A DNA stretch of 64,000 nucleotides from a virus. Taxonomy: Duplodnaviria > Caudoviricetes. The translations under genes and the position numbers were made by a program. How positions within the stretch are numbered: the first letter of the stretch is position 1; the number at the start of each line of letters is the position of its first letter. The notes below the pieces were generated by a model. That model made no database searches. It had not been told where the DNA came from and worked only from the letters and a program-made list of their open reading frames with translations. Positions 42,988 to 60,042 of this stretch are shown here, piece after piece. Where the stretch lies: positions 1-64,000 of the IMG/VR virus record IMGVR_UViG_3300049988_000245; one strand, given 5' to 3'.

Positions 42988-42992
42988 ACTCC

Positions 42993-45574: not shown

Positions 45575-46430
45575 TTCTGACGCAATCAACAAGGCCGCCA
45601 AGCTGCTCGGCATCGACCGGGATGAGGTCACCAAGCGGATGGAGAAGATGCCCGTCAACGCGGTGATCGACGCACTCGATGCGGTTGCATCCGGTGACGA
45701 AGAGCGCGTTCGCGAACTCCTCGGGAATGATGTGGATGAGGACGGCGGTCTGGAATCTCCTGAGAAGAACGTCGAGGATGACGACGAGTTCGAGATCAAC
45801 CCTCTCTTCATGAAGCGGAACAACGCGAAGAAGAAGCAGTCCGAAAAGGAGGTTGAGGAGGAAGCCTTCTCCCCCAACATCGGCGACGAGGTCCGTGTGA
45901 ACGGAGAAGAGGGAATCGTTAAGGTCGTTCATGGCCCGAATGATACGACCGGCGTGATGATCGACGGTCAGACTACCATGGTTAAGAAAGCACAGGTGAA
46001 GCGCGTGAAGACTCAGGAAAGTGTTATTGAAGAAGGTCTAATGGGAATGACCCCGATGATCGACCTGCGTCGCATGCAGGAACTCGCCGGTATGACCCCA
46101 GGGGCGTCGCCGCTCTCCCCAGGTCGTGTGGACTTGGCTGGTTCCTCGGATGCCGTGGAAGGCCCTCCAGCGCCCGTGGACGCCGTCGAGGTGTCTGTGG
46201 AGCCCGCACCAGCACCGATTCCACCGATGCCCGCCCCTGTGGCTCCTACGGCGGCTCCTGAGGCGAATCTGACCGCTGTTAGCATCGACGGCGTCATGTC
46301 GTCGTTCGATCAGATCGAGGCGGCTCTTCCGAACATCGCTCTGGGCGACGCCAAGACGGTCCGTGAGCGCATCAATGCGATCATGGCCCTGCTCAACGAA
46401 GGTCTTGACGGTCGCAAGCGCAAAATCTAA
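45567..46430 (+). CDS. Acidic late protein, scaffold/core-like
   Basis: KOW-like PNIGDEV module; IEE then LRRMQELAG motif. Confidence 0.55.
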   Translation: MADSDAINKAAKLLGIDRDEVTKRMEKMPVNAVIDALDAVASGDEERVRELLGNDVDEDGGLESPEKNVEDDDEFEINPLFMKRNNAKKKQSEKEVEEEAFSPNIGDEVRVNGEEGIVKVVHGPNDTTGVMIDGQTTMVKKAQVKRVKTQESVIEEGLMGMTPMIDLRRMQELAGMTPGASPLSPGRVDLAGSSDAVEGPPAPVDAVEVSVEPAPAPIPPMPAPVAPTAAPEANLTAVSIDGVMSSFDQIEAALPNIALGDAKTVRERINAIMALLNEGLDGRKRKI

Positions 46431-46492
46431 ACCCCCGCTGGGCTCCGGCCACTGTGCAAAAGCATACGCTCGCCCTGAATTGACAGGGGGTC

Positions 46493-46658
46493 CCCGGTGA
46501 GTAGCTACCTCGAAACCGGGATGGGAGTTTTTCAATTTGACTGTTCCGAATCTACGGAATAGTCTGACTAGGTCACCCAGGCAGGCACTGGATTCGTCCA
46601 TCCTCCACCAGTGAGCTTACACAACGGTCGCTCGGTGAGTTGCAACCTCGAAGCCGAG
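46493..46658 (+). repeat. Two copies of a 28-nt structured motif (46493-46520, 46631-46658)
   Basis: 23/28 identical; all 5 differences preserve complementarity. Confidence 0.7.
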
Positions 46659-46703
46659 ATGTGGGTATTTGTGAGGGGGTTTGGCCGCAAGGCTGGACCC
46701 CCT
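46571..46703 (+). ncRNA. Candidate structured ncRNA (~133 nt)
   Basis: TTGACT-N17-TAGTCT promoter 46537-46565; stems CACTGG/CCAGTG, GGA-TTCG-TCC, CTCGG/CCGAG; terminal 13-bp stem with GCAA loop and 3 G-U pairs. Confidence 0.5.
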
Positions 46704-46709
46704 TAAAGT

Positions 46710-47042
46710 TTACAGGCACACCCTGAGCATGACGAAGTCGCGCTGGCAGTCTTCGACGGAGCCGCCGAACGAGGTCACGTCGAATCCCTCACCGCTGAAG
46801 AGTCCCCGGACGCCCCAGGTGGACGTGTAGAGGCGTTGGGTCCAGTGGCGGCGCAGATCGGCGATCACCCATATTCCCCCAGCATAAGCCTTCCAGCGAC
46901 GAGCCGAATACTTGCTCTTTTCGTAGTCCGAATGAGCCTTGGGAATCGCGTTCATCAGCCCGGTGAAATCGAGTGCCGCGATCTCAGGCGGCGGATCGAT
47001 GTACTTGAGAGCGTACGAGGGTTTTGGTCTGGTCTCTGACAT
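46710..47042 (-). CDS. Hypothetical protein
   Basis: SD GAGG; 110-aa ORF. Confidence 0.6.
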   Translation of the reverse strand: MSETRPKPSYALKYIDPPPEIAALDFTGLMNAIPKAHSDYEKSKYSARRWKAYAGGIWVIADLRRHWTQRLYTSTWGVRGLFSGEGFDVTSFGGSVEDCQRDFVMLRVCL

Positions 47043-47071
47043 GCCTCATTATAAGGCATGTCGTGAGGAAA

Positions 47072-47683
47072 TCAAACCTTACGCTTGGTGACGAAGAAGC
47101 GGCTTTCCTCGAACTCGATCTCATATCCCCAGGTCCCGAGGCTCTGGACCCATTCCTGAACGTTGCCACCGCCGAATACCTGGGCGTCGCCATCGTCAGT
47201 GATGTATCCGACCGTGAATCCCTTATGGACGGCCTCGGACATCCGCGCGATCCAGTAGGCTTTTCCCGCCTGGGTATGAGTCTTATCCGAGAGGATCGTA
47301 TCGTAATTCTGAATCATCGGTCCCCAGAACATCTTCTGGGCGATATCTTTAACCGGGCAATCGGGTGACTTCCACAGCATGTAGGTTGAACAGCACCGAC
47401 CAAGACCATCGAGCTTGTAAATTTCGTACTGCGCGGTATAGCAGACCTTCTTGTTGACGATATCCAACAGGAAGAGTTCGCCCTCATGCTCCTCAACAAT
47501 GTTGCCGATCACATAGTGATCATTCTCCACCAGGGGATTGTATTGGCTTCGAATCAAGCGCTGATACTCTAACGTGTTCACCTCCGGGTGATTCACGTTG
47601 ACATCATCGGCCTGAGACTGTGGGACGAGTGCTGGCATCTCCGTAAGCGGGACGACAGCTTCCATAAGATCGCGCATATTCAT
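47072..47683 (-). CDS. Late protein, possible GNAT-like fold
   Basis: ATAAATA at 47695-47689; MNMRDLME..LTE; ILSDKTHTQAGKAYW. Confidence 0.5.
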   Translation of the reverse strand: MNMRDLMEAVVPLTEMPALVPQSQADDVNVNHPEVNTLEYQRLIRSQYNPLVENDHYVIGNIVEEHEGELFLLDIVNKKVCYTAQYEIYKLDGLGRCCSTYMLWKSPDCPVKDIAQKMFWGPMIQNYDTILSDKTHTQAGKAYWIARMSEAVHKGFTVGYITDDGDAQVFGGGNVQEWVQSLGTWGYEIEFEESRFFVTKRKV

Positions 47684-47691
47684 GCGCTTAT

Positions 47692-48549
47692 TTATCGGAA
47701 TCCCAATTGCAAGTAGGTCGCCATGGTCTCACTCGACGCCAGCATGAGCAGCCGATACATTACCGGAACCTGCGGGTACACCGGCTCAGGCGTATCGATA
47801 GCGATTTTCTTCTGGGCCAGGAAGGCTTTTTGGATCGGCTCGCACAATGCGTAGGTCTCGGCCTGATCGTCGTTTCGGAATCGGCATACGACGGCACCTC
47901 CCCCGAGGGTACGGACGACAAGAAGCTCGAACGACGGTAAGGCGCGATCGTCCTTCAGGTAGCGTTTAAGGTGAAGCGTTCGAGCGTTTGACAGCCGATC
48001 ACACAGGGTAAAGCCGTCGTCCGGGCGGTAGCCGCGATCCAGCACCTTATTCAGCGGGTTGTGCGCGGCAGCATCTCCTTCGATCCAGCCCGTATCGGCG
48101 ACAAACGGCTGCTTCTCGGCCTCTAGCAAGGCCGCGCTGACCAGCCGGGCGGTTTCTGAACTGATCTGGGCAAGTTTCTTCCGTTCTTCCTTAGCGAAAT
48201 AGCCACGTCCGGTTGACCGTAGCGCCGGGCGCGGCTTCTGCAATTGAAACCGCCCATACGGGTCGCGCAGCCACGTCTCAATCCGGGCGTCCTCCAGAGA
48301 GGGCGTGGGTAGAACATGGCGATTCGCAGTCAAGACAATCCGCCCTGATGCGGTGATCTCGAACGCCGTGTGGGTCTTATTCGCGTAGACGACCCGAGTC
48401 TGTTTCAGATGACCATCGTGAACGAGCTTACGCAGGTCGCGATTGGTCGAAGCCATCCCACCCTGACAGTTCACCTCGATCGGCTTGGTCTCCGCCTTCG
48501 ACAGAAGCTCAACCCGGCGGACCAGAGACCGGGCCTTATCTGCACTCAC
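47692..48549 (-). CDS. Hypothetical protein
   Basis: 285-aa ORF; winged-helix-like N-terminus. Confidence 0.6.
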   Translation of the reverse strand: MSADKARSLVRRVELLSKAETKPIEVNCQGGMASTNRDLRKLVHDGHLKQTRVVYANKTHTAFEITASGRIVLTANRHVLPTPSLEDARIETWLRDPYGRFQLQKPRPALRSTGRGYFAKEERKKLAQISSETARLVSAALLEAEKQPFVADTGWIEGDAAAHNPLNKVLDRGYRPDDGFTLCDRLSNARTLHLKRYLKDDRALPSFELLVVRTLGGGAVVCRFRNDDQAETYALCEPIQKAFLAQKKIAIDTPEPVYPQVPVMYRLLMLASSETMATYLQLGFR

Positions 48550-48752
48550 GAGGTGGTCTCCGGAAAGATCGCAAATCCGCCATCATGGGAGTCGGTATCG
48601 GAAAAATAGAACCCTCCGAGGTCATGTCCAGCCTCGACACGCTCGGCGATATTACGCAGAAGTCGCGACGCAACAGCAGCGTGCTCAGGTCCAATGACTT
48701 CACCCTCGCCAATGACGACGGAGACTTCAAGCTTGATACGGGGCTTCTTCAC
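48546..48752 (-). CDS. Small hypothetical protein
   Basis: GTG start; coupled ORF; GGTTTGACC upstream. Confidence 0.55.
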   Translation of the reverse strand: MKKPRIKLEVSVVIGEGEVIGPEHAAVASRLLRNIAERVEAGHDLGGFYFSDTDSHDGGFAIFPETTS

Positions 48753-48853
48753 GCGACGATCCTATAGTGATTCAGATTACAATCCCACAAATTTCAAATT
48801 TGGTCAAACCGTTTTTAAGATGGTAAATAGTAGTAGTTAATGAAAGGTCAGAC

Positions 48854-49606
48854 ATGCTTACTGTTGCGTGCGTATTTAAGACATTTACCCAGGGAATCTA
48901 CGGCGGCGCCTATAACGATGCTTGGATTCAGAAACTCCAGAGGAGCGTTGCCAAGCACCTGTCGGTCCCGCACCGGTTTGTCTGCCTCAGCAACAGCTTT
49001 ATCCCGCATGTGGACGTAATTCCTCTCCAGAATGATTGGGAAGGTTGGTGGTCGAAGATCGAGATGTTCCGTCCCGGCCTATTCAAGGGTCCGGTTCTAT
49101 CGTTCGATCTTGATGTTACAGTGTTGAGTTCGATCGACCACATGGCCGGACCGTTTCCGAACATGATGATGCTCCGGGATATTATCCCGACGATCAACAA
49201 CTCTACCTGCATGTGGTGGGACGCCTCGGACCCCGCATACGGTAAGATTTACGAAACGTTCAAGGCCGACCCGGATGGGCTGAAGAAGAAGCACCACGTG
49301 TTCAACACGCAGTCGATGGGAGACCAGGGCTTCATCAACGAGATTGTCACCGGCCAGGGTAAGCAGATCGACATTTGGCAGGACAAATTCGGTGACGAGC
49401 AGTTCGTACCATTTTCGTTCTTCAGCCGTTTGAATCCGATCATGAACGATATTAAGCCGTCGCCCGATCCATTCTCGTTCCTTAATACCCTGAAGGAACC
49501 ACAGATGAATCCAGAACTTCAACGGGCCAAGCTAGTATACTGCCTTGGTAAACCAAAATTTGATTCTTATAATGATCTTGTTGTTGTTAAAAAGAATTGG
49601 GTGTAA
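48854..49606 (+). CDS. GT-A fold glycosyltransferase
   Basis: TVACV, FVCLS, GWWSKIEMFRP, DLD (DxD), NST.M.W, GDQGFI; GTAAATA at 48823. Confidence 0.8.
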   Translation: MLTVACVFKTFTQGIYGGAYNDAWIQKLQRSVAKHLSVPHRFVCLSNSFIPHVDVIPLQNDWEGWWSKIEMFRPGLFKGPVLSFDLDVTVLSSIDHMAGPFPNMMMLRDIIPTINNSTCMWWDASDPAYGKIYETFKADPDGLKKKHHVFNTQSMGDQGFINEIVTGQGKQIDIWQDKFGDEQFVPFSFFSRLNPIMNDIKPSPDPFSFLNTLKEPQMNPELQRAKLVYCLGKPKFDSYNDLVVVKKNWV

Positions 49607-49703
49607 GATAACATGCTATCAGGATCACATATATTTGACAATGTGACTGCTGATATATTCATTTTTTATACTATAAATACTTCGCAAATATTTGAGGTCA
49701 TTA

Positions 49704-52700
49704 ATGAGAATCACCGGAGGAATCAAGCCGTTCAGCCAGCAGAAGGTGCGGCTTGGGCAAACGTCGGGTGTTAAAATTGATTGGGACAACCCAACGGGAA
49801 CGCTTGGATCGGTCAACGCCGGAGATGCTTTCAACTTCAATTTTTCTGCCCGCTCATCCGACAACAACGTTGTCAGGTTCTACCTAAAGTCTGGCTCTCT
49901 GCCGGATGGTATGACGCTGTCTGAAAACGGGACGCTGTCGGGGACATCAAACTCTCCGGGCATGTATGCGTTCGTCATCAAGGCGGTTGCAGGTCTCTTC
50001 TCTGTCGAGCGAACCTTCTCAGTCCTCACGAAGGCTATCACGGTCGCTTGGACCTCTCCAGCCACGCTCGGTACGATTCCAGCTTCTATTTCCACCCTGA
50101 CGACCCTGTCCGCAACGGCATCGGATGGCGGCGCGGTCGATTACCAGTTGGTTTCAGGAAGCCCGCCCTCGGGAATGGAGTTTGTCACTTCTGGTGCGGT
50201 CCTTGGCAAGCCCAGCACGGGAGGCACGGCGGCTTTCACCGTTCGAGCCACTCGAAAGGCCAACATCTTCACCGACCGTACGTTCACGCTTGCGGTTGCG
50301 GCACCAATGATCACGTGGACCACGGGTTCGCTTCCGATGACCACCGGAGGAAACGTTTACGATCAAACCGTAGTCGCTACTTCCAACCAAACAAACGCGG
50401 TCCTATCGTACTCAGTCGTTTATGGATCGCTGCCCGCTGGACTTAGCCTTAACTCGGCAACAGGTCGAATCACGGGAGCAGCGTCGAACGTCGGTGGCTC
50501 CTCGGTATTCCGAATTCGTGCGAACGACGGGTATACGTATCTGGACAAAGAATTCACCATTACGGTGAATGAAGACATCATCTCTTGGAACACCCCGTCA
50601 GGCTCTTTTGCTTCGCTCAATGGCGGACAGACCTTCATGGGTACACTCGCGTCTGTTTCTAACATCACAGGCCGTTTGGTTAATCAGTATCGGGTCGTAT
50701 CCGGCGCACTCCCTGCGGGATTGACCCTCGACCCCGTTTCGGGATCGATCTCGGGAACTGCGCAGAACGTCAACGGCCTGTCATCGTTCATCGTTCGTGC
50801 ATCAGACGGGTTTGGATTCGCGGATCGCTCATTCCAGATCACAGTTCTGGCCGACGTCATTACGTGGCAGACTCCGACCCAGGTTACATTCAACGCTGGG
50901 GATGGCGACACGAGCATTCAGCTTAATGCGACTGCGCTTTCTGGAAGCCCAATCACGTATACGGTCGTCTCGGGCACGGTTCCAACTGGATTCTCGTTCA
51001 ATCCCACGACGGCGATTATCAGGGGATCGTCCAGCACGACAGTAACTTCGGCGATCACCATTCGGGCAAGTAATTCGATTACTTCGTCTGAGCGCACGTT
51101 TACGGTTTCCGTCAACGGGGCGCCGGTCTGGTCAACCGTCTCGGGCTCGATCGGTTCGGTTCTTCCGGGTCAGCAGATCAGCTTCTCGTTGATCGCATCC
51201 GATCCGGACGGCATTCAATCATACACGGTCATCCCAGAGGGGTCGCTTGCCGAAACCGTGTCGATTCGCAAGATGGGTAACACCGGCTACCTAACCGGCA
51301 CATTCCCAACTCCCTCGGATCAGTTCCCGCCCACATGGACGACGGATCGTGCCATTCCCACGGTCAACGAGGGCGTGATTCAGCCCATCTCGCTTGCTGC
51401 GGCGCCTAGCTCGGGACGTACGATCTCTCGTTACCTCACCGTGGGTGGCACGCTGCCCTGGGGTCTGGCGATGGCCGCAAATGGTGTCGTATCTGGCTCG
51501 GCTTTCAACCAGATTGACGAGCCCTTCACGCCACTTGCTCCCGCCCCGTTGTTTGCGACTGCGACCGACCTTGGCACGAAGTCCGAAGGCGATTCAGTTT
51601 CCCTAACGATGAATGCCACCTCGGTCGCCGGTAGTTCGATTTCGAACTACTCGTTCGTATCTGGAACCATGCCATGGGGAATCGTTCTGAACGGCTCTAC
51701 CGGTGTGCTATCGGGTACGATCGGCGACATCGAACCGGTCTCTGAAAATGTTGCAGCCGGTCCGGCACCCCGTTGGATGACATCCAATGCGGTCTCTCTG
51801 GCCGTCTTGAACGAGAACGATCCCGTCTCGGGCGTGAAGTTCGAGGCCCTGTCAAATTCCGCGTCGGGTATCCGTGGGTACGTGCTTCAGTCGGGTGCGC
51901 TCCCCTGGGGACTTACGTTGAGCGCAAACACCGGAGACGTCTCGGGTAACCTCGTGTTCGATCTCATGGACACGCCATTCGTATCTGCGCCCGGTCCGAC
52001 CTTCATCACGGCTTCCGACATGGGCACGGCCAGTGAAGGAACTCCGCTATCCGCAACGATCAAGGCGACACCCGTCACCGGTAATGCCGTGACCTCTTAC
52101 GCCCTAGTCGGCGGAATCCTCCCATGGGGTATCACGGTTAATTTGAACGGCGTGATCTCTGGAACGATCGATAACATCGAACCAATCTCGGACGCCCCTG
52201 CGAATCTTCTGCCTCCGACGTGGATGACCAACGCCTCGCTGCTCTACTCGGGTGACGAGAACTCCACGTTCACCATGAACGTCTCCGCGACCCCGTCGAG
52301 CAATCGTACGGTAGTGTCCTACAACATCGCCAATGGTGCGATTCCGTGGGGCGTAACGCTGAACAATCTTGGTACTCTCTCGGGCACGATCTCGAACATC
52401 GAACCGGTCCGTGATCCCGTTGTGATTCCGGAAGGCCCGATCTGGCAGACCTCGAATGCGACCGTGCTGTTCGCGGGCGACGAAATCATGTCGTTCAACG
52501 CTACCGTAGTCGCGAATTCCGCTACGAATACGGGCATCGCCGCATACACGATCACCAAGGGTGGAGCCCCGTGGGGCGTCTCTCTCAATTCGAAGACCGG
52601 CCAGTTCACCGGAAACGTTACGTTGATCGAGCAGGACGACCCGTTCGTGGTCACGAACACTCCGGTATTCGTAACCCCGGCGGGTAGCCTGGGTACGGTC

Positions 52701-53831
52701 GATGAAGGCACTGTCATGACGACGCCAATCATTGTTACGCCTGGACCACGCTCGGCCCCCGTGAGTGGTTATTCGGTTGTTGCTGGCGCGATCCCTTGGG
52801 GCCTCACTCTGAGCCAGACCGGTGTCCTTTCGGGAACGATCGATAACATCGAGCCGATCGTCGAAATGACCGCGAATCTTAATCCCCCGGTATGGCAGAC
52901 GAACGCCGCAACCCTCTACTCGGGCGATGAGCTTAGCTCATTCTCGACTACTGTGATGGCGAACGCCGCGACCAACAAGACCGTCGTTTCGTACACCGTC
53001 ATGAATGGGACGATTCCGTGGGGAACGACCCTGAACAGTGCGGGCGTCCTCACCGGAACCATCTGGGGAATCGAGCCAGTATCCGATCCAGTGGCGATTC
53101 CGGCTGCTCCAGTCTGGATCACCGCAAACACCTCGGTGCTCTTCTCGGGTGACGAGATCATGCCGTTCACCGCCACCGTGGTTGCGAACTCCGCCACGAA
53201 TACGGGGATCGCCGCCTACATGATTGCGAACGGCACCGTCCCCTGGGGCGTAACGCTGAACTCGAAGACCGGTCAGTTCACCGGCAACGTGACGCTGATC
53301 GAGCGCGATGACCCGTTCATCGTGACCACCCCGCCGGTATTCACCACCCCCGGCGATCTGGGGACGGTCAACGAAGGCGCTCTGATCTCTCAGAGCATCG
53401 TGGCGCTCCCAGGGGCGGCTTCCATCCCTGTGGCTACCTACGCGGTCTCTGGTGGAGCTATGCCGTGGGGAATCACCCTGAGCCCATCTGGTACGCTATC
53501 TGGAACGATCGATAACATCGAGCCAGTCAGCGAAGGAATCGTTCTTGGGACACCCCCATCGTTTACGACTCCGGCGGGCTCGCTCGGAACGTTCTCGAAC
53601 TCAGCAACCGTCAGCACCTCTGTGAGTGCGACTCTAGCAGGTTCATCCATCTCTTATGGAGTTCAATCGGGCACGCTTCCTTGGGGTGTTGTCCTAAATC
53701 AAACGAACGGTTCTATTTCTGGATCATTGAATCCTACTGATGATTCAAATCGTACATTTGCTTTCTCAATTAGAGCTTTTTCGTCAAATGCAGGTTATAT
53801 TGACCGTGCATTCTCTATTACTGTTCAGTAA
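49704..53831 (+). CDS. Giant Ig-like (He_PIG-type) repeat fibre protein, 17 repeats
   Basis: TATAAATA at 49672; SD GAGG; repeats P.W.T...LG...G.LP.G.TL...G.ISG. Confidence 0.85.
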   Translation: MRITGGIKPFSQQKVRLGQTSGVKIDWDNPTGTLGSVNAGDAFNFNFSARSSDNNVVRFYLKSGSLPDGMTLSENGTLSGTSNSPGMYAFVIKAVAGLFSVERTFSVLTKAITVAWTSPATLGTIPASISTLTTLSATASDGGAVDYQLVSGSPPSGMEFVTSGAVLGKPSTGGTAAFTVRATRKANIFTDRTFTLAVAAPMITWTTGSLPMTTGGNVYDQTVVATSNQTNAVLSYSVVYGSLPAGLSLNSATGRITGAASNVGGSSVFRIRANDGYTYLDKEFTITVNEDIISWNTPSGSFASLNGGQTFMGTLASVSNITGRLVNQYRVVSGALPAGLTLDPVSGSISGTAQNVNGLSSFIVRASDGFGFADRSFQITVLADVITWQTPTQVTFNAGDGDTSIQLNATALSGSPITYTVVSGTVPTGFSFNPTTAIIRGSSSTTVTSAITIRASNSITSSERTFTVSVNGAPVWSTVSGSIGSVLPGQQISFSLIASDPDGIQSYTVIPEGSLAETVSIRKMGNTGYLTGTFPTPSDQFPPTWTTDRAIPTVNEGVIQPISLAAAPSSGRTISRYLTVGGTLPWGLAMAANGVVSGSAFNQIDEPFTPLAPAPLFATATDLGTKSEGDSVSLTMNATSVAGSSISNYSFVSGTMPWGIVLNGSTGVLSGTIGDIEPVSENVAAGPAPRWMTSNAVSLAVLNENDPVSGVKFEALSNSASGIRGYVLQSGALPWGLTLSANTGDVSGNLVFDLMDTPFVSAPGPTFITASDMGTASEGTPLSATIKATPVTGNAVTSYALVGGILPWGITVNLNGVISGTIDNIEPISDAPANLLPPTWMTNASLLYSGDENSTFTMNVSATPSSNRTVVSYNIANGAIPWGVTLNNLGTLSGTISNIEPVRDPVVIPEGPIWQTSNATVLFAGDEIMSFNATVVANSATNTGIAAYTITKGGAPWGVSLNSKTGQFTGNVTLIEQDDPFVVTNTPVFVTPAGSLGTVDEGTVMTTPIIVTPGPRSAPVSGYSVVAGAIPWGLTLSQTGVLSGTIDNIEPIVEMTANLNPPVWQTNAATLYSGDELSSFSTTVMANAATNKTVVSYTVMNGTIPWGTTLNSAGVLTGTIWGIEPVSDPVAIPAAPVWITANTSVLFSGDEIMPFTATVVANSATNTGIAAYMIANGTVPWGVTLNSKTGQFTGNVTLIERDDPFIVTTPPVFTTPGDLGTVNEGALISQSIVALPGAASIPVATYAVSGGAMPWGITLSPSGTLSGTIDNIEPVSEGIVLGTPPSFTTPAGSLGTFSNSATVSTSVSATLAGSSISYGVQSGTLPWGVVLNQTNGSISGSLNPTDDSNRTFAFSIRAFSSNAGYIDRAFSITVQ
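51117..53543 (+). repeat. Eleven tandem strand-incomplete Ig repeats
   Basis: Repeats 6-16 (about 70-76 aa) lack the F.IRA...DR.F.I.V hairpin present in repeats 1-5 and 17 (about 90 aa). Confidence 0.75.
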
Positions 53832-53848
53832 ATTTAAAGGATCAATTT

Positions 53849-54910
53849 ATGGCGACTTATAACTTTACGATTCGCGCTACCGATAACGTTGGCGCCTATG
53901 CGGATCGCAACTTCTCGATCAATGTCAACAACACGATTTATGACCGATTCGTTGCTGTCGGCAACGCCGGTCTCGCCCGTTCACCCGATGGTGTGAATTG
54001 GCTTTGGGAAGCTGGTCTGTCGGGAGAGGGCGTTGCTTTTGGTGGCGGCAAATGGCTGGTTTGGAACGGCACAACGTTTCGCTCTTCACCCGATGGAACC
54101 TCTTGGACCAACTATACCCCGACGTTTACCGGCGCGAGCGTTGGTGGTGTCTCCCGTATCAAATACCGTATCGCGAATAGCACGTGGGTCGCGCACACTT
54201 ACTATTTCAATGGGTCGAGCTATTCATATGATGAATTTAGTTCCACCGATGCCGTAACATGGGCGAGATCAACAAATATCTTTACCGGCGGTGGCAACAC
54301 TCTGTCGTATGCAACCTGTGACTTCGATCATGACGCCGCAGGTAATTGCGTTGCTTATCTCAATGGTGGAGCAACTTTCTACAAGCCAGCCGCTTCATCT
54401 ACATGGACAAGCCAGTCAATTAGCGGCCTCGGTCAAATTTCTGCCAGCACTTTTTGGGGAAATGTTCGAAACTATAACGGCTTGTGGATCATTTCGGCTG
54501 GCTCATCAAACGTTGCCACGTCAGTTGATGGTACCAATTGGGTCGGGCGCGCCACCGGTGCCGCTCAGTATGGTCTGCTGTATCTGAACGGTCGAATCCT
54601 TTCTCTTCCTACGAATACTGGAGCCAACACGTCCGCGACAATCCGAGAAAGCCTTACTGCGGGTCGTTCATGGGCAGGCCGCACTGGAGCAACTGCATCC
54701 AATAATCTTCCGTACGGACTGCTTACCGGCACGGGTGGAAATACGTATAAGCAGCCTATGTGCTATTTCGGCGGCACGCTACTGGCTCACTCAAACGGCA
54801 ACACTGCACTTTCTAGAAGCGTGGATGATGGTCTTACGTTTACGAGCTTTGCACCGGCCGGTTCATCAGGGGTATTCAACGCAATTGCTGCTCGTGACGG
54901 TATTAGCTAA
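53849..54910 (+). CDS. Beta-propeller-like receptor-binding protein with N-terminal Ig-completing hairpin
   Basis: Starts MATYNFTIRATDNVGAYADRNFSINVNN; repeated S.DG..W (BNR/Asp-box-like) motifs. Confidence 0.75.
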   Translation: MATYNFTIRATDNVGAYADRNFSINVNNTIYDRFVAVGNAGLARSPDGVNWLWEAGLSGEGVAFGGGKWLVWNGTTFRSSPDGTSWTNYTPTFTGASVGGVSRIKYRIANSTWVAHTYYFNGSSYSYDEFSSTDAVTWARSTNIFTGGGNTLSYATCDFDHDAAGNCVAYLNGGATFYKPAASSTWTSQSISGLGQISASTFWGNVRNYNGLWIISAGSSNVATSVDGTNWVGRATGAAQYGLLYLNGRILSLPTNTGANTSATIRESLTAGRSWAGRTGATASNNLPYGLLTGTGGNTYKQPMCYFGGTLLAHSNGNTALSRSVDDGLTFTSFAPAGSSGVFNAIAARDGIS

Positions 54911-54928
54911 GATTTTGAGGTAAAATAA

Positions 54929-56092
54929 ATGGCAACCTATAACTTTACAGTCCGTGCGATTGATAATTCTGGTGCATTTTCAGATCGCAACTTTGCGATG
55001 ACTGTGAATAACACTCAGGTAGATCGTTTTATCATTTCCACTTATAATGGATTCCTTCGTTCTACCGATGGGACTACTTGGAATCTCGACCAGAATATTT
55101 ATAGCGAACAGGTTCGTTGGGAAAATAACCAATGGATTGGATACTCGTCAAATGCGTACGCCTATACTGGAACTATTCGCACATCTGTCGATGGCTTGAA
55201 TTGGAAAAGCATCACACCCACAGTTCCCTTCAGAGCGGCAATCACTTCGACTGAAGGATTTAGCAACCTTTTGTTTCAGGGTTGGAATTCTATCAAATAC
55301 CGCAAGGGTGCTTGGAGAGGTTTTGCGATCGTCTATGCAACACTCAATTCTACTGGTGTGGTTTGGTACTTGTACGAAGAGTACTCATCTCCTGATCTTG
55401 TTAATTGGACTCCGGTGGGACAAGTAACTGCCAGAGTTGGTACGTCGGTAAATCTTGGCAACGGCGTTGTGGACTTTGATTATGATCCTGCTACGGATAC
55501 GACTGTGGCGTTGTTTTCTAATTATCAACAAGGCGGATGTTTTGGTTATCGTAGAGTTGGCACAGGAGCTTGGGGAAATATTTATATCACAGGTACCAGC
55601 CTGGGAGGTACTGTTCCCCTAGAGTCTTCACGAACCGGTTTTACTTCTTCGACCAGAACAGGAAAAGTGTTCTTCCAAAACGGCGTATGGATTATTTCGA
55701 TCGGTGCGATTCTTGTTTGGACCAGCACGGATGGGAATAATTTTATTACGCGAGACCTGTCTATTTCTTCGGCTGGTATCGGTAATGTGATATACTCGAA
55801 CGGTCGGCTACTTGCATATCCGATGAACTCAACGGGCCTAACCAACCCGCTTCTGCAAAGCACGAATGCGGGCCATACTTGGACAACCCGACCGATCACT
55901 TCGACGCAGAAACTTTTGTCTACTTTTACTTCAAATCAAATGAATCGCCAGAATATTGCTTCCTATGGTGGCACGATTATCGCGATCTCGCCAGCAGAGG
56001 CAAACATCGTCGTTTCGAAGGACGACGGTTTAAACTGGTCTCTGATTAATGTGGGTGGCACTCCAATTAGCATCGCCTCCCGCGAGAGCTAA
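54929..56092 (+). CDS. Second beta-propeller-like receptor-binding protein with N-terminal Ig-completing hairpin
   Basis: Starts MATYNFTVRAIDNSGAFSDRNFAMTVNN; STDG..W, SVDG.NW, SKDDG.NW; AT-rich DNA. Confidence 0.75.
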   Translation: MATYNFTVRAIDNSGAFSDRNFAMTVNNTQVDRFIISTYNGFLRSTDGTTWNLDQNIYSEQVRWENNQWIGYSSNAYAYTGTIRTSVDGLNWKSITPTVPFRAAITSTEGFSNLLFQGWNSIKYRKGAWRGFAIVYATLNSTGVVWYLYEEYSSPDLVNWTPVGQVTARVGTSVNLGNGVVDFDYDPATDTTVALFSNYQQGGCFGYRRVGTGAWGNIYITGTSLGGTVPLESSRTGFTSSTRTGKVFFQNGVWIISIGAILVWTSTDGNNFITRDLSISSAGIGNVIYSNGRLLAYPMNSTGLTNPLLQSTNAGHTWTTRPITSTQKLLSTFTSNQMNRQNIASYGGTIIAISPAEANIVVSKDDGLNWSLINVGGTPISIASRES

Positions 56093-56099
56093 TCCATAC

Positions 56100-56127
56100 A
56101 ACTCCGGGTCCTACGGGACCCGGAGTT
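56100..56127. terminator. Bidirectional hairpin with UACG loop
   Basis: AACTCCGGGTCC-TACG-GGACCCGGAGTT. Confidence 0.75.
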
Positions 56128-56158
56128 TCCGCCTACTGGAGGCTGAAAATGGAGAGAG

Positions 56159-56413
56159 TCAACCCCATCGCATCTTGAAGGCGAACGCGTCATTCTCATC
56201 GGAAAAATAGAATGCGTCGCCTGCATCGATCCAGCGATTGCAATAGGTGGACCTGTGGGACGGGTACAAGACGGGTCCGAACTGCTCCGTGCACCACTCA
56301 ATCATCTCGGGGCTGGCCCCGTCATTAGTCCAGATCAGATGAGGGAATTGCCGATAGAGGTTCTTTTCCCTGATGGCTTGGCGCTTGGCCAACACGCTAT
56401 CCCAAAGGCTCAT
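56159..56413 (-). CDS. Family-F small paralog
   Basis: EMIEWCTEQFG...FYFSDENDAFAFKMRWG. Confidence 0.82.
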   Translation of the reverse strand: MSLWDSVLAKRQAIREKNLYRQFPHLIWTNDGASPEMIEWCTEQFGPVLYPSHRSTYCNRWIDAGDAFYFSDENDAFAFKMRWG

Positions 56414-56631
56414 CAGCCCCACCGCATCTTGCAGGCAAATGCCGTATTTTTATCGGTGAAGTATAGACGCTGGCACTTCTCGGTCGAGTCATATGCCAGC
56501 GTCCACTTACCCTTTTGTTCGGGAAGAGTTAACCAATCCCGAACATAACCGAGATACTTGATTTTCTCTCGATCGAGGATGAAGCTCTCCGGCATCTCGG
56601 TATGTCGATGATGCGGGAGATACTTCGCCAT
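56413..56631 (-). CDS. Family-F small paralog
   Basis: Ends LYFTDKNTAFACKMRWG. Confidence 0.8.
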   Translation of the reverse strand: MAKYLPHHRHTEMPESFILDREKIKYLGYVRDWLTLPEQKGKWTLAYDSTEKCQRLYFTDKNTAFACKMRWG

Positions 56632-57104
56632 CAGATGACGCCGTGCGCCTTCAGGAATGCGATGCACTTCTGCGCGTCGCCGTCGTACCGATAGGCGCGA
56701 CCCCCTGCCTTCTCCCACCGCTTGGTGTTCTTCGACATGTCGTCCACGAGCCAGTCACCGGGCTGCTTCATGTGAAGAGCCTTGTTCTTGGACAGGCAGG
56801 TGATGACCTTCTTGTGCGCGAAGTGGCCATTGGCCCACCACGACATCTTGGACTCGGCAGCGCGCTCGTAGTCCCCCTTGGGGCATCCGGTGAGGACAGT
56901 CGGCTCGACATGCTTGATCGCGTCCCAAAGCTCGATCGCTCCGGGCTTCATCGGCATGTGGGACCAGAACGTGTCCGAGGCGTTCGCCTTGGCCCACATC
57001 TCGTCATCATTCATATCTTTTGGATATTGGCCGAACAGATCGAAGATGTGCTGGTCGAAATCCGCAAAAACGCCGTCAGAATCTACGAATAAGTGGTTTG
57101 ACAT
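56631..57104 (-). CDS. HAD-family 5'(3')-deoxyribonucleotidase
   Basis: FVDSDGVFADF, VLTG, K..W, LVDD..KN...W. Confidence 0.85.
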   Translation of the reverse strand: MSNHLFVDSDGVFADFDQHIFDLFGQYPKDMNDDEMWAKANASDTFWSHMPMKPGAIELWDAIKHVEPTVLTGCPKGDYERAAESKMSWWANGHFAHKKVITCLSKNKALHMKQPGDWLVDDMSKNTKRWEKAGGRAYRYDGDAQKCIAFLKAHGVI

Positions 57105-57181
57105 AATTCCTCCAAAGTCAATTGATGTGCGGATTAAGCACCGTTGTCAACCCTGGAGGCAATTTTCGTGTTACGAAAAAT

Positions 57182-57910
57182 TCACTTGCGGCGAGTCAGT
57201 CTGTCGAGTTCCGCATTCAGGTTGATCACCTTCGGGCGGGAGCCATATGGCTTTCCAGAGATTCGAGCGCGTTCCTGCTCATCTCGGAGCATGGATTGAA
57301 TCTTCTTGATCCGAGCCTTGACCGTTTCGTCTTCTGATTCGTTTTCCACAAGAGCATCATTCAGGTCGGTAATCTTCGGAACCGGGAGTTTTCCACGCTC
57401 CGCGACCATCGCAACCTCCTCGACACCGCGCATGAGGTATTCCTTACCACCCGTGGCGGTGCGGACCTTCAGCGCACAATTCTGAAGCTCGCCGCCCTGG
57501 TCCTCGAAGAACACGCGCATGAGCTTGATCAACTGCGACGCGCTGGCGCCCTCGAAGATCATGTACTGATTCGGGTTGTTCCGATTTTGAGAGGCAACGC
57601 GAATCCAACCTTTGGCGCAGACCGCGTTCATCACGACAGGGTCGCGATCCTTGCCGGTGGCACCATGAAGTTCCTCGGCGGTGACACCGAACTCTTCCGG
57701 GTTCTTCATGACCTGCTGGACGTGGTTGTTGATGCCCACAACAGGGACGAACTCGCCGTTGGCGGAATTGTACCAGCTACGGTAGGCGTACTTGTAAGAG
57801 AGCTTCCAGGCCGCCTCAAGTAGGGACTGGTACTTGCGGCGCTGTTCCGGCTGATGCTCAGCGGCTTCTGCTGTCGAACCAAGTAGGTTCAAAATGCTAC
57901 GAATGTCCAC
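57182..57910 (-). CDS. Late hypothetical protein
   Basis: ATAAATA at 57947-57941; GTG with GGGAG; MDIRSILNLL; LVENES. Confidence 0.65.
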   Translation of the reverse strand: MDIRSILNLLGSTAEAAEHQPEQRRKYQSLLEAAWKLSYKYAYRSWYNSANGEFVPVVGINNHVQQVMKNPEEFGVTAEELHGATGKDRDPVVMNAVCAKGWIRVASQNRNNPNQYMIFEGASASQLIKLMRVFFEDQGGELQNCALKVRTATGGKEYLMRGVEEVAMVAERGKLPVPKITDLNDALVENESEDETVKARIKKIQSMLRDEQERARISGKPYGSRPKVINLNAELDRLTRRK

Positions 57911-58088
57911 AAATAGGACTCCCAAAATGAAATGACTTAATATTTATCCGTTTGGGAGGTTTGGACGGGCTACCAGCCCCACCCAGGGGGCTGGCCCGGT
58001 TTTCCCAGGGAGGGCCAATGGCTGTCCCTGGGTCCTGATGTCGGGGCCGCGTAACTCCGGAGAGCAGAGGGGGCGCACCGACTATTCG

Positions 58089-58319
58089 TCATCCATGCAT
58101 GATCGCGATAACCGCCTGGGTCTCATCGCGGTACCACACCCGAATACGGTACTTGTCGAACGGCTCGATCACCTGCTTTGCGCGGGTAGCCCATTCGATC
58201 TTGTAGATATGCGTGAACCTCTGGAGGTAGTCGAGGGCGTCGAACAGATTTAGACCGACCAGATCGAGGTCGTCCAGGGCACATTGAAGCCCATAGTTCT
58301 TCTGCATTTCCGCGTTCAT
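58089..58319 (-). CDS. Divergent family-F-like protein
   Basis: Ends IRVWYRDETQAVIAIMHG. Confidence 0.55.
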   Translation of the reverse strand: MNAEMQKNYGLQCALDDLDLVGLNLFDALDYLQRFTHIYKIEWATRAKQVIEPFDKYRIRVWYRDETQAVIAIMHG

Positions 58320-58873
58320 GCGGCCACCACGTGGGCATTGTACCCGACATAGCGGAAAAACAGCTTGGTTCCGTAGGAGAGCCACCCCAGATTCTCTTCC
58401 GAGAGCGCCTTGTACGTGAGCGGGTAATCGACCGGCTTCAGATCGACCGTCGCAATGGCCGTCTCATGATCACGCTCGATCACGAACCCGAGGGCGAGCA
58501 GGCGGCGCATCATCCAGCGATTCTGGGTCAGGCATTGAGAAGAGAATCGTTTGGCACGAAAGCGGGACCATTCAACCGCTCTGGCCAGGAGGTTCGCGCC
58601 GTTTCCGGCTTTCCGGAAGGGCTCTTCCACGGACAGGCCGAGGTCGGCGGTTCCGTGGGCAAACGCGACGTGCGCGGCGGCGCGAAGCGTACAGTTTTCG
58701 TCGAAGAATCCGAAAATCGCGTCTTGGGTCAGATCGATCCCAGAGACATACCGGTTGATAGCCTCGTCCGTAGTGGACGATTCGAATCGCATCATGCGAT
58801 CGTTATAATCGAGGCGCTTCAGATGCTCCTCAAATTTCCACCGCTCCATAGGAAGCAGCATACGAATGGTCAT
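58316..58873 (-). CDS. GNAT-family acetyltransferase
   Basis: RMMRF, ADLGLSVE..FRKAG.GA.LL, N..M..L...LGF. Confidence 0.8.
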   Translation of the reverse strand: MTIRMLLPMERWKFEEHLKRLDYNDRMMRFESSTTDEAINRYVSGIDLTQDAIFGFFDENCTLRAAAHVAFAHGTADLGLSVEEPFRKAGNGANLLARAVEWSRFRAKRFSSQCLTQNRWMMRRLLALGFVIERDHETAIATVDLKPVDYPLTYKALSEENLGWLSYGTKLFFRYVGYNAHVVAA

Positions 58874-58973
58874 TGGAAATGCCTCGAAAAATAGCTGAGT
58901 ACCGCTGGGGAAAGCGGAGTATTTATTCAACTACATTTCAAGGCGCAGCCGCAATATTTTCGCGACGTGAATT

Positions 58974-59342
58974 CTAGTTGGCTGGATCGTTGTAGTAATT
59001 CGATACGTACTGGAAGTCGTCCGCCGACATCCGAATCTTCCCGTCCTTCGCGCCGATCGCCAAGGCGAGCAGGACTTTCATCTCTCGGATGTGGTGACCG
59101 TGCCAGTAATAAGTCGCGTTCACACCTGCGAGTTCTCTGAGATTCTTGTCGGCCTTTTGGGTCGCTTGATCCGCCGTGAGGGTCACATCGAGCCCGAAGA
59201 ACTTGCGTGGCTTACTGTACTCAGCGATCCTCTCCTGACGCAACCGGACGCGCTCGGCCTCCCGCCACTCGATGGCGTCTTTCAGAGCCGCAACAACGCG
59301 CGGGGCGCTGACTTCGGCCGAGGTGAATGCCTTGTCGGTCAT
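58974..59342 (-). CDS. Hypothetical protein
   Basis: SD GGAG; TAG stop. Confidence 0.6.
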   Translation of the reverse strand: MTDKAFTSAEVSAPRVVAALKDAIEWREAERVRLRQERIAEYSKPRKFFGLDVTLTADQATQKADKNLRELAGVNATYYWHGHHIREMKVLLALAIGAKDGKIRMSADDFQYVSNYYNDPAN

Positions 59343-59575
59343 CTGTGCTCTCCATAGTCGTTGAATTCGATCCGGCGGGTCTTCCAGGGCTTCCACATGA
59401 GGAGATCGGCGCAGCAGAAGCCGACGCCCCCGGCGAGGTAGGAGTACCAGTTGATCCCGCCAGCCGCCCAGGGAAGCCACGAGATGGCAAAACCGATTGG
59501 CGCGGTCACCGAGGTTCCGATGAGGAATAGCGCGGTCTGCCGGTAAATCTCGTACTTGAGCGGCGTGTTCAACAT
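59339..59575 (-). CDS. Two-TM membrane protein
   Basis: Two hydrophobic segments; ATGA coupling. Confidence 0.6.
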   Translation of the reverse strand: MLNTPLKYEIYRQTALFLIGTSVTAPIGFAISWLPWAAGGINWYSYLAGGVGFCCADLLMWKPWKTRRIEFNDYGEHR

Positions 59576-59597
59576 GAAATACCCCGGATGAATAAAA

Positions 59598-59672
59598 TGG
59601 CGTCCCCTCAGGGATTCGAACCCTGGATCGCGGAGTTAGAAGCCGCTGCCTTAACCGCTTGGCTAAGGGGAC
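59598..59672 (-). tRNA. tRNA with CUA anticodon on a tRNA-Glu-like body
   Basis: GTCCCCT/AGGGGAC acceptor, G73, CCA, 4-nt variable loop; anticodon arm GCGGC-TTCTAAC-TCCGC. Confidence 0.8.
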
Positions 59673-59678
59673 ATACGG

Positions 59679-59752
59679 TGTCTCTGGTCGGGCTCGAACC
59701 GACGACCAATGGAGTTAGAAGCCACCGCTCTGACCAACTGAGCTACAGAGAC
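59679..59752 (-). tRNA. Second tRNA with CUA anticodon, A73, CCA not fully encoded
   Basis: GTCTCTG/CAGAGAC acceptor; GCTC/GAGC D-arm; GTGGC-TTCTAAC-TCCAT; GGTTCGAGCCC T-arm. Confidence 0.8.
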
Positions 59753-59881
59753 ATCCCGTACTTATGTGCTAAACGATCCGGTGATTTTCGTCAAACCAAT
59801 CTGATCTGGATGGTTAACGACCCACCTGAATCTCAAACGATTGCCGCTTAAATATTAGAGACATCCAACTGAGGTATTACC

Positions 59882-60004
59882 ATGGATTCACTGTTTAACG
59901 TCTTCATTGCCGACAAGCTGATCTTCTACCCGTTCGCCGCACTGGTGTTCTACTTCCTCTGCCTCGAAGCAGTCCACAAGACGAAGATCGTTCTACGTCG
60001 CTAA
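59882..60004 (+). CDS. 40-aa late single-TM peptide (not in ORF track)
   Basis: TTAAATA at 59848; SD GAGG; MDSLFNVFIADKLIFYPFAALVFYFLCLEAVHKTKIVLRR. Confidence 0.6.
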   Translation: MDSLFNVFIADKLIFYPFAALVFYFLCLEAVHKTKIVLRR

Positions 60005-60011
60005 AACGACA

Positions 60012-60042
60012 AGCCCGACCAAAGCAATGCTCTGGCCGGGCT
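60012..60042. terminator. Hairpin between convergent small genes
   Basis: AGCCCGACCAAAGC/GCTCTGGCCGGGCT. Confidence 0.65.

What the first reader, a model, noticed from the sequence alone, without database searches (positions are those of the whole stretch)
49704..56092. Candidate donor-strand-complemented branched adhesin: Ig sockets plus plug-in propeller proteins
Seen: the 1375-aa protein has 17 Ig-like repeats. Repeats 1-5 and 17 end with a two-strand element (e.g. SSFIVRASDGFGFADRSFQITV, TFAFSIRAFSSNAGYIDRAFSITVQ). Repeats 6-16 (51117-53543) stop after the G-x-I/L-S-G strand and lack it, and repeats 7-17 carry PWG where earlier repeats have P-x-G. The next two genes each begin with just that element (ATYNFTIRATDNVGAYADRNFSINVN; ATYNFTVRAIDNSGAFSDRNFAMTVN) fused to different propeller-like domains. 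Established: chaperone-usher pili assemble by donor-strand complementation of incomplete Ig folds. Inference: the fibre offers up to 11 sockets that are completed in trans by interchangeable receptor-binding heads, giving a multivalent, modular host-range device. I know of no phage precedent.
Basis: partly seen in the sequence, partly recalled or inferred. Interest (0 to 1): 0.9.

Follow-up and report, generated by a model that had tools for sequence, protein, structure and literature searches.

The report
Phage stalk with plug-in propeller heads
A giant phage encodes a stalk of cadherin-like domains, eleven of which lack their last two beta-strands, followed by two propeller proteins that each begin with exactly those two strands; this suggests, but does not prove, that the heads snap onto the stalk by completing its unfinished domains, as pilus subunits do.

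Summary
P0001 (49704-53831) has 17 He_PIG (cadherin-like Ig) repeats. R1-R5 and R17 are complete. R6-R16 stop after strand E: they cover Pfam profile positions ~3-69 of 96. Residues 3-27 of the next two proteins cover positions 72-96, the missing F-G hairpin, and are followed by Asp-box beta-propellers.

The arrangement is conserved. All 11 truncated-repeat loci I examined carry a hairpin-led propeller gene adjacent or within about 3 kb. The free hairpin is far better conserved than the propeller bodies or the stalk's own terminal hairpin. AF2 models the short repeats confidently as half-sandwiches with strand C unpaired. A repeat-plus-peptide complex prediction gave only weak support (ipSAE 0.45, best control 0.01).

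In the cultured relative Atu_ph07, all three homologues (gp239-241) were found in virions by published mass spectrometry.

The donor-hairpin mechanism is plausible but unproven. No contacts were returned, stoichiometry is unknown, and an aromatic enriched in short repeats could instead let them stand alone. I found no described phage precedent. Verdict: partly supported, a new variant of donor-strand complementation, high interest.

The parts
49704..53831 (+). Stalk gene (P0001, 1375 aa): 22-aa N-terminal leader followed by 17 He_PIG / cadherin-like repeats. SD GAGGT at 49694-49698; stop TAA.
49770..51119 (+). Repeats R1-R5 (aa 23-472): complete seven-strand He_PIG domains with their own F-G hairpin and P-x-G with a small x.
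51120..53555 (+). Repeats R6-R16 (aa 473-1284): eleven truncated repeats with strands A-E only, covering He_PIG profile ~3-69/96. Each is followed by a ~13-17 aa Pro-rich linker. PWG is present in R7-R16. R11-13 and R14-16 form a period-3 super-repeat. These are the candidate sockets.
53556..53828 (+). Repeat R17 (aa 1285-1375): a PWG-type repeat that keeps its F-G hairpin in cis (RTFAFSIRAFSSNAGYIDRAFSITVQ). AF2 pLDDT ~97, seven strands. It shows what a filled socket would look like.
53849..54910 (+). Head protein A (P0002, 353 aa): N-terminal F-G hairpin followed by an Asp-box beta-propeller. SD AAGGA at 53837-53841; stop TAA.
53852..53929 (+). Free F-G hairpin of P0002 (aa 2-27, ATYNFTIRATDNVGAYADRNFSINVN). 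Matches He_PIG profile 72-96/96.
54929..56092 (+). Head protein B (P0003, 387 aa): N-terminal F-G hairpin followed by an Asp-box beta-propeller, 34% identical to P0002. SD GAGGT at 54917-54921; stop TAA.
54932..55009 (+). Free F-G hairpin of P0003 (aa 2-27, ATYNFTVRAIDNSGAFSDRNFAMTVN). Matches He_PIG profile 72-96/96.

Best explanation
The three genes encode one virion appendage of a jumbo phage. P0001 is a beads-on-a-string stalk of cadherin-like (He_PIG) domains. Its eleven central domains are half-sandwiches: they have strands A-E, but strands F and G are missing, so strand C has no partner. P0002 and P0003 are Asp-box beta-propeller heads, probably glycan-binding. Each starts at residue 2-3 with a free F-G hairpin. 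After independent translation, the hairpin inserts into an F-G-less repeat and supplies the missing half of its second sheet. This is two-strand donor complementation, and it leaves the propeller tethered by ~6 residues at the junction with the next repeat. One conserved plug would fit many diverged sockets, which would explain why the hairpin is nearly invariant. Shown: the anatomy, the exact profile complementarity, the conserved gene linkage, the virion presence of the homologues, and the propeller fold. Inferred: that the hairpin binds the stalk, that it occupies the F-G slot, how many sockets are filled, and that the heads bind the host surface.
For: (1) Truncated repeats cover He_PIG profile 3-69 and plug residues 3-27 cover 72-96 of 96. 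(2) AF2 with a 25-row alignment models R14-R16 at pLDDT 82-92 with strands B, D and E but no DSSP strand at the C segment. R17 has all seven strands, and the linkers fall below 50. (3) All 11 truncated-repeat loci examined carry a hairpin-led propeller gene. It lies directly 3' in 10: window, L004, L005/6, L007, L008, L009, L010, L011 (three socket/plug pairs), L012 and L013. In L022 it lies ~3 kb 5'. The one control locus with complete repeats only (L023) has none. (4) Truncated repeats occur in 79 of 153 He_PIG relatives. Of the 36 giant (>1500 aa) He_PIG proteins, only P0025 has any, and it is itself followed by two plug genes. (5) Across 17 plug proteins, 14 of 32 N-terminal positions are invariant and mean column identity is 82%, while the bodies are 33-51% identical. 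Between the same genome pairs, the trans hairpin is 69% identical and the cis R17 hairpin 43%. (6) R17 combines a PWG-type core with a cis hairpin 46% identical to the plug, so that core accepts this hairpin type. (7) Each gene has its own SD. The hairpin-coding DNA is only 44-46% (R17 vs plugs) and 70% (plug vs plug) identical, so selection is on the peptide. (8) Atu_ph07 gp239, gp240 and gp241, the homologues of the base, socket and plug proteins, are all in the virion proteome (PMC6102473, Suppl. Table S5). (9) In the short forms a He_PIG repeat is split between two genes at the B-C loop in four lineages, so this family apparently builds sandwiches from separate chains.
Against: No contacts or interface were returned for the predicted complex, so the hairpin's position in the F-G slot is unverified. 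Any such prediction could also reflect likeness to intact He_PIG domains rather than binding. Aromatic residues at P-x-G are strongly enriched in truncated repeats: 54% of 325 against 5% of 438 complete repeats (the counts are not phylogenetically independent). They might fill the core and make the short repeats stable alone. AF2 models the short repeats confidently without any partner. Socket and plug numbers do not match: 11 sockets and 2 plug genes here, about 3-4 sockets per plug gene in L011. No fused form (repeat core + hairpin + propeller in one chain) was found (weak evidence). Nothing places the protein on a tail or capsid site, and the neighbouring genes are not structural.
Confidence: 0.5

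Rival explanations
1. Adaptor without fold completion. The conserved N-terminal hairpin anchors the propeller proteins to the appendage, but by edge-strand augmentation on a complete repeat (for example R17) or by binding another virion protein. The short repeats would be self-sufficient five-strand spacer domains whose core is capped by the PWG tryptophan.
For: Aromatics at P-x-G are enriched in truncated repeats, odds ratio ~23. AF2 gives the truncated repeats a high pLDDT on their own. Sockets far outnumber plug genes. The complex prediction returned no contacts.
Against: It does not explain why the anchor is precisely the part of the He_PIG profile that the short repeats lack. It does not explain why plug genes are found only alongside truncated repeats. 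The C segment lacks any beta partner in the models. R17 shows that PWG and an F-G hairpin coexist.
Confidence: 0.27
2. Self-association. The exposed faces of the short repeats are buried by packing against each other, between neighbours in one chain or between chains of an oligomeric fibre. The plug hairpin would have a role internal to the propeller protein, such as a folding nucleus or oligomerisation element.
For: R11-13 and R14-16 form a period-3 super-repeat. A block of three short repeats plus one complete repeat is conserved in the short forms. Phage fibres are commonly trimers (my own knowledge).
Against: AF2 shows no inter-repeat packing: pTM is 0.37 and the linkers fall below pLDDT 50. 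In the P0002 monomer model the hairpin has a lower pLDDT (67-79) than the propeller (>90). This reading does not explain the homology of the hairpin to the missing strands.
Confidence: 0.13
3. Genetic rather than structural meaning. The shared hairpin-coding segments would be recombination sites for swapping heads onto the stalk's 3' end, or recoding (frameshift or readthrough) would fuse the ORFs, or the hairpin is a relic of gene fission.
For: The stalk ends with the same element with which the next two genes begin. The P0002 frame is open 15 codons upstream of its ATG and overlaps the end of the stalk gene.
Against: DNA identity is 44-46% (R17 vs plugs) and 70% (plug vs plug), with the longest exact match 11 nt. 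All three genes have their own SD and TAA stops. A fusion after the complete R17 would still leave an orphan hairpin. Near-invariance across phages whose bodies are 33-51% identical rules out a relic.
Confidence: 0.04

Closest known systems
Donor-strand complementation/exchange in chaperone-usher pili (my own knowledge; cf. PMC10104325, listed)
   Same: An Ig-like domain encoded without part of its C-terminal sheet is proposed to be completed by an N-terminal extension of another polypeptide, giving a non-covalent but very stable joint.
   Different: Two strands (an F-G hairpin) are missing and donated here, not the single G strand. The donor is a propeller head, not the next pilin. Many acceptor domains lie in one chain, so the product would be a side-branched stalk rather than a head-to-tail polymer. 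No chaperone or usher is present, and assembly would occur in the cytoplasm of an infected cell. The domain family is He_PIG/cadherin-like, not pilin.
Type V pili of Bacteroidia and archaeal Tafi fimbriae (my own knowledge; Tafi donor-strand exchange is mentioned in bioRxiv 10.64898/2026.09.13.751334)
   Same: These are further cases of strand donation between subunits outside the chaperone-usher system. They show that the principle has arisen repeatedly.
   Different: They are cellular filaments built by polymerisation of like subunits. Here a viral protein array would accept unlike head proteins.
Branched receptor-binding complexes of phages such as CBA120 and G7C (my own knowledge)
   Same: Several different receptor-binding proteins share a conserved N-terminal attachment module and hang from a common scaffold protein encoded next to them.
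   Different: Those use folded adaptor domains docking onto folded domains. Here the attachment module is a 26-residue hairpin that corresponds to the missing part of the scaffold's own repeats.
Agrobacterium phage Atu_ph07 gp239-gp241 and the equivalent genes of Sinorhizobium phage Phosso
   Same: This is the homologous module. It consists of a base protein with one complete repeat plus strands A-B, a socket protein with 3-4 truncated repeats plus one complete repeat, and a plug-propeller protein. All three Atu_ph07 proteins were detected in virions.
   Different: It is the short, split form: the stalk lies in two genes and there is one head. In the window the stalk is one fused 1375-aa protein with 11 short repeats and two heads. 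The proteins are annotated only as hypothetical or 'EF hand/PKD domain'; no function or mechanism is described.
Classical cadherin strand-swap dimerisation (my own knowledge); cadherin ectodomains are the top Foldseek hits of the stalk model
   Same: A cadherin-type beta-sandwich exchanges a strand with a partner domain.
   Different: There the swap is reciprocal, involves the N-terminal A strand, and occurs between two complete domains. It is not a completion of an incomplete domain.

Membership tests
He_PIG (PF05345) cadherin-like Ig domain | Match to the Pfam model above the gathering score | tested here: met
   P0001 scores 262 bits against a cut-off of 24, in 14 stretches. Single repeats R16, R15, R10, R17 and R4 score 25.5-42.6 bits.
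He_PIG (PF05345) cadherin-like Ig domain | Full-length domain (profile ~1-96, seven strands including F and G) | tested here: not met
   This feature is met by R1-R5 and R17 (profile to 95-96; seven strands in AF2 for R17). It is not met by R6-R16, which end at profile 64-69 and lack F-G.
Chaperone-usher type donor-strand complementation | Acceptor Ig fold lacking its C-terminal G strand, completed by a single N-terminal donor strand | tested here: not met
   Two strands (F and G) are missing and are offered as a hairpin. This is a functional analogy only.
Chaperone-usher type donor-strand complementation | Dedicated periplasmic chaperone and outer-membrane usher encoded with the subunits | tested here: not met
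   None of the 10 neighbouring ORFs (42993-61146) matches either in Pfam or PHROGs. None of the three proteins has an evident signal peptide by reading their N-termini.
Chaperone-usher type donor-strand complementation | Physical completion of the acceptor fold by the donor | tested here: inconclusive
   Complex prediction gave ipSAE 0.45 against a best control of 0.01 and rated this 'weak support'. Partner pLDDT was 70-71 and the three runs agreed in at least 92% of contacts. No contacts were returned. A structure or binding assay is needed.
BNR/Asp-box beta-propeller | Repeated S-x-D-x-G-x-T/x-W motifs on a propeller fold | tested here: met
   Motifs are readable in P0002 and P0003: RSPDGVNW, SSPDGTSW, TSVDGTNW and TSTDGNNF. 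The AF2 propeller has pTM 0.83. The best PDB matches are Ycf48 and sortilin Vps10, and BNR/DUF6242 phage proteins appear in BFVD.
BNR/Asp-box beta-propeller | Match to a curated BNR/sialidase family model or presence of sialidase catalytic residues | tested here: not met
   There is no Pfam or PHROG hit at E<=0.1. Homologues have only faint precomputed DUF6242_C/BNR_2 hits. Catalytic residues were not examined.
Phage virion appendage (fibre/whisker) protein | Presence in purified virions | not testable with these tools
   This cannot be tested for the uncultured phage of the window. The homologues gp239, gp240 and gp241 of Atu_ph07 were detected by ESI-MS/MS of virions (PMC6102473, Table S5).

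The most novel reading that the evidence does not exclude
A virion appendage assembled entirely from split cadherin-like domains. A base protein ends in strands A-B, a shaft begins with strands C-E and continues as a row of F-G-less repeats, and head proteins bring the F-G hairpin. Single beta-sandwiches would then be built from two or three polypeptides. One stalk could carry many propeller heads, up to eleven here, of two kinds. This would be a side-branching form of donor-strand assembly that needs no chaperone and is not known in any virus.
Probability: 0.25. Interest if true: 0.9.

Novelty: new variant of a known kind. Interest (0 to 1): 0.78.

Why it matters
If the hairpin does complete the short repeats, this would be, as far as I could find, the first viral use of donor-strand complementation. 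It would differ from the known cases in three ways: two strands are donated, the acceptors lie in a row within one chain, and the donors are receptor-type heads.

It would explain how some jumbo phages build their poorly understood 'hairy' appendages, and how one short conserved plug lets different heads share a scaffold. It would also offer a small, genetically encoded, probably very stable plug-and-socket pair for protein engineering.

The question is directly testable. Two cultured phages, Atu_ph07 and Phosso, carry the module, and its three proteins are already known to be in Atu_ph07 virions.

Tried and rejected
**Similarity searches that found little**
- Megablast of 40000-60000 against the phage collection found no match.
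- Scans of viral contigs with P0002 and P0003 found no relatives.
- A word-indexed search with only residues 1-40 of P0002 returned just five known relatives.
- A search for longer proteins, meant to find a stalk-propeller fusion, returned only an unrelated bacterial propeller, P0172. Absence of a fused form is weak evidence.

**Complex prediction**
- It scored ipSAE 0.45 in three runs (0.44-0.46) against a best control of 0.01 and was rated 'weak support'.
- That mark was reached by 58 of 80 solved complexes and 2 of 110 mismatched pairs. Scores of 0.60 or under came from only 7 of the 80 and from both mismatches that passed.
- Partner pLDDT was 70-71 and the runs agreed in at least 92% of contacts.
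- No interface was given, and a pass could also come from likeness to intact He_PIG domains.

**Ideas rejected**
- Recombination cassette or recoding is rejected on DNA identity, the separate SD sites and the stops.
- Recent tandem amplification of the repeats is rejected. TRF finds nothing at the DNA level, and the repeats are 26-59% identical apart from R12/R15 at 76%.

**Uninformative results**
- Stop-codon reassignment was checked because of the two tRNA(CUA) genes. The crude ORF statistics did not settle it, and all three genes end in TAA.
- Pfam and PHROGs gave nothing structural for the 10 neighbouring ORFs.
- Literature searches for a phage precedent for strand complementation found none in the held library. 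The library lacks most subscription journals, so this is weak evidence.
Full report
**Setting**

The window is the first 64 kb of a 265,895-bp IMG/VR virus record, estimated 57% complete. It carries jumbo-phage replication and translation genes: a gp32-like SSB, a RecA/UvsX-like protein, helicases, DnaB, RNA ligase, seryl-tRNA synthetase and a radical-SAM enzyme. It also carries three tRNA genes. It has no close DNA relative in the phage collection.

- The gene at 49704-53831(+) encodes 1375 aa (P0001) and has its own Shine-Dalgarno site.
- Pfam sees He_PIG, the 'putative Ig' cadherin-like domain, at E 2.9e-79.
- I cut the protein into 17 repeats:
  - R1-R5 (aa 23-472) are 89-93 aa and end in the pattern F.F.[IV]RA......DR.F.[IV].V.
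  - R6-R16 (aa 473-1284, nt 51120-53555) are 69-76 aa. They stop after the G.[IL]SG strand, and a 13-17-residue Pro-rich linker follows.
  - R17 is again complete.
- PWG occurs in R7-R17 only.
- An HMM census reproduces 6 complete + 11 truncated repeats.
- A hairpin HMM hits P0001 only in R2-R5 and R17.
- P0002 (53849-54910) and P0003 (54929-56092) begin MATYNFT[IV]RA.DN.GA..DRNF...VN.

Measured against Pfam, the truncated repeats cover He_PIG profile positions 3-69, 5-69, 5-66 and 8-64 of 96. Residues 3-27 of both downstream proteins cover 72-96. Complete repeats run to 95. The two parts are therefore exactly complementary pieces of one domain model.

**The heads**

- AF2 with 15 relatives folds P0002 at pLDDT 83 and pTM 0.83. 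The hairpin (strands 2-11 and 17-26) has pLDDT 67-79, and the body exceeds 90.
- Foldseek finds beta-propellers. Ycf48 and sortilin Vps10 rank first in the PDB. In the viral library an uncharacterised Atu_ph07 protein ranks first, and BNR/DUF6242 phage proteins also appear.
- Asp-box motifs (S.D.G..W) can be read in both proteins.
- No Pfam or PHROG family matches.

**The short repeats in a model**

- AF2 on R14-R17, with 25 homologous blocks of 'three short + one complete', gives mean pLDDT 86.
- Each short repeat scores 82-92 and shows strands B, D and E, but the C segment is not a strand because it has no partner.
- R17 scores about 97 with seven strands, in which C pairs with F.
- The linkers fall below 50, and pTM 0.37 shows no fixed packing between repeats.
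- The short repeats are therefore modelled as half-sandwiches.

**Conservation**

- P0002 has 13 relatives of similar length. All begin at M1 with the hairpin, and the N-terminal 34 residues are almost invariant while the bodies are 33-51% identical.
- Over 17 plug proteins, 14 of 32 positions are invariant.
- Between the same pairs of genomes, the free hairpin is on average 69% identical and the stalk's own terminal hairpin 43%.
- A search of 1.8 billion representatives with R13-R17 gave 630 hits.
- Among the 153 of these with scorable He_PIG cores, truncated repeats occur in 79. All 79 are in proteins of about 200-1700 aa.
- Of the 36 giant (>1500 aa) He_PIG proteins, only P0025 has truncated repeats, and it is itself followed by plug genes.

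**Gene linkage**

- I examined 11 loci with truncated repeats, and every one has a hairpin-led propeller gene.
- It lies directly 3' in the window, L004, L005/6, L007, L008, L009, L010, L011, L012 and L013. In L022 it lies 3 kb 5'.
- L011 has three successive socket-protein/plug-protein pairs.
- L005 has three plug genes.
- One control locus, whose giant He_PIG protein has only complete repeats, has no such ORF.

**Virion association**

tblastn found the module in two cultured jumbo phages, Agrobacterium phage Atu_ph07 and Sinorhizobium phage Phosso. In Atu_ph07 the three genes are:

| Protein | Size | Role in the module |
|---|---|---|
| gp239 | 143 aa | base |
| gp240 | 338 aa as annotated ('EF hand/PKD domain') | socket protein |
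| gp241 | 401 aa | plug-propeller |

The published virion ESI-MS/MS lists all three: 3, 2 and 6 unique peptides, with 40.6, 13.9 and 18.2% coverage respectively (PMC6102473, Supplementary Table S5). That paper describes tail fibres and mainly capsid-associated 'hairy whiskers'. Which structure these proteins form is not known.

**A second split**

- In the short forms the stalk itself is divided between two genes inside a repeat.
- The base protein ends with strands A-B, and the next gene begins with strands C-D-E. Its start overlaps or abuts the preceding stop (ATGA in L008, TTGA in L011).
- I saw this in L008, L011, Phosso and Atu_ph07.
- In Atu_ph07 the deposited gp240 start seems too far downstream.
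- In the window these parts are fused in one chain.
- This suggests that the family routinely assembles sandwiches from separate chains. Ribosomal frameshifting was not excluded.

**The direct test**

- R16 plus P0002 residues 1-32, both supplied as alignments, scored ipSAE 0.45 (three runs, 0.44-0.46) against a best control of 0.01.
- Partner pLDDT was 70-71, against 36-42 in the controls. The runs agreed in at least 92% of contacts.
- The tool rates this as weak support. The mark was reached by 58 of 80 solved complexes and 2 of 110 mismatched pairs, but scores of 0.60 or under came from only 7 of the 80 and from both mismatches that passed.
- No contacts were returned, and likeness to intact He_PIG domains could contribute.
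- The score is compatible with the idea and does not establish it.

**Rivals**

- *Genetic reading (recombination cassette, recoding, relic).* This is disfavoured.
  - The hairpin-coding DNA is only 44-46% (R17 vs plugs) and 70% (plug vs plug) identical, with no exact match over 11 nt.
  - Each gene has its own SD and a TAA stop.
  - The peptide is under strong purifying selection.
- *Self-sufficient short repeats.* This is the serious rival.
  - An aromatic residue, mostly Trp, at P-x-G is found in 54% of 325 truncated repeats against 5% of 438 complete ones (not corrected for relatedness). It could fill the vacated core.
  - Against this, R17 and most terminal complete repeats of the family carry the aromatic together with a cis hairpin, so the two are compatible.
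  - This rival also leaves unexplained why the anchor is exactly the missing piece.
- *Self-packing of short repeats.* The period-3 super-repeat hints at this (R11/R14 59%, R12/R15 76%, R13/R16 55% identical). I could not test it.

**What remains open**

- How many sockets are filled is unknown.
- The two heads are a conserved paralogue pair in the window, L004, L009 and a Verrucomicrobiaceae-labelled contig. They are not freely shuffled cassettes.
- Host binding is inferred from the fold only.

**Verdict**

The anatomy and its conservation are solid. The donor-hairpin mechanism is the best single explanation, at about 0.5. No phage precedent turned up in the held literature. I rate it a new variant of donor-strand complementation, of high interest, and testable in Atu_ph07 or Phosso.

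Noticed in passing
window 59598-59672 and 59677-59752 (- strand); also 22039-22113 (+): There are two tandem tRNA genes with anticodon CUA (amber suppressors; ARAGORN calls them tRNA-Pyl), plus a tRNA-Cys. Sinorhizobium phage Phosso also has a tRNA(cta) about 6 kb from its copy of the module (L025 1317-1392). Crude ORF statistics did not show whether TAG is reassigned. TAG ends 98 of 435 long frames in the record.
   Followed up: partly
L008 7537-8004 / 8001-9098; L011 1004-1450 / 1447-2547; L025 5388-5852 / 5849-6991; L024 5479-5910 / ~5912-6998: In the short forms of the module one He_PIG repeat is split between two genes at the B-C loop. The upstream protein ends with strands A-B, and the next gene starts with strands C-D-E at an overlapping or abutting start codon. 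The two genes may be separate chains that reassemble, or they may be joined by frameshifting; this was not resolved.
   Followed up: partly
L024 (Atu_ph07 MF403008.1) around 5912-5982: The deposited start of gp240 (AUZ95022) looks too far downstream. The frame is open to an ATG two bases after the gp239 stop, which adds MTTLPSPYPIKYSLINGELPEGLHL, strands C-D of a He_PIG repeat.
   Followed up: partly
L011 1004-8283: One metagenomic contig carries three consecutive pairs of a socket protein (366, 355 and 369 aa) and a plug-propeller protein (388, 393 and 406 aa), with 4-nt gene overlaps. The second and third socket proteins also begin with strands C-D-E.
   Followed up: partly
G000 (same virus record, outside the window) 210658-212688 (+) = L018 586-2613: A second He_PIG-bearing protein (676 aa) has one complete and one partial repeat and a large C-terminal domain. 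It weakly matches a PHROG 'virion structural protein' (E 0.003). It could be the attachment site of the stalk.
   Followed up: partly
window 52215-53555 (R11-R16): The last six short repeats form a duplicated triplet: R11/R14 are 59% identical, R12/R15 76% and R13/R16 55%, against 26-50% for most other repeat pairs. The same 'three short + one complete' block is the conserved unit of the short-form socket proteins.
   Followed up: yes
window 48854-49606 (+): The gene directly upstream of the stalk matches a PHROG glycosyltransferase family (phrog_1962, E 2.8e-26). Whether it modifies the appendage is unknown.
   Followed up: no
window 30457-31749 (-), 28876-29904 (-), 10554-12140 (-): The phage encodes a seryl-tRNA synthetase, an RNA ligase and a radical-SAM protein, in keeping with a very large phage genome.
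   Followed up: no
L022 2090-3181: A paralogue of the plug-propeller protein has an N-terminal element that has decayed (MKHGITFTVAENVEQIDARTVCFDQVF). It lies next to an intact plug gene (L022 891-1976). In this locus the stalk proteins have no complete repeat at all.
   Followed up: no
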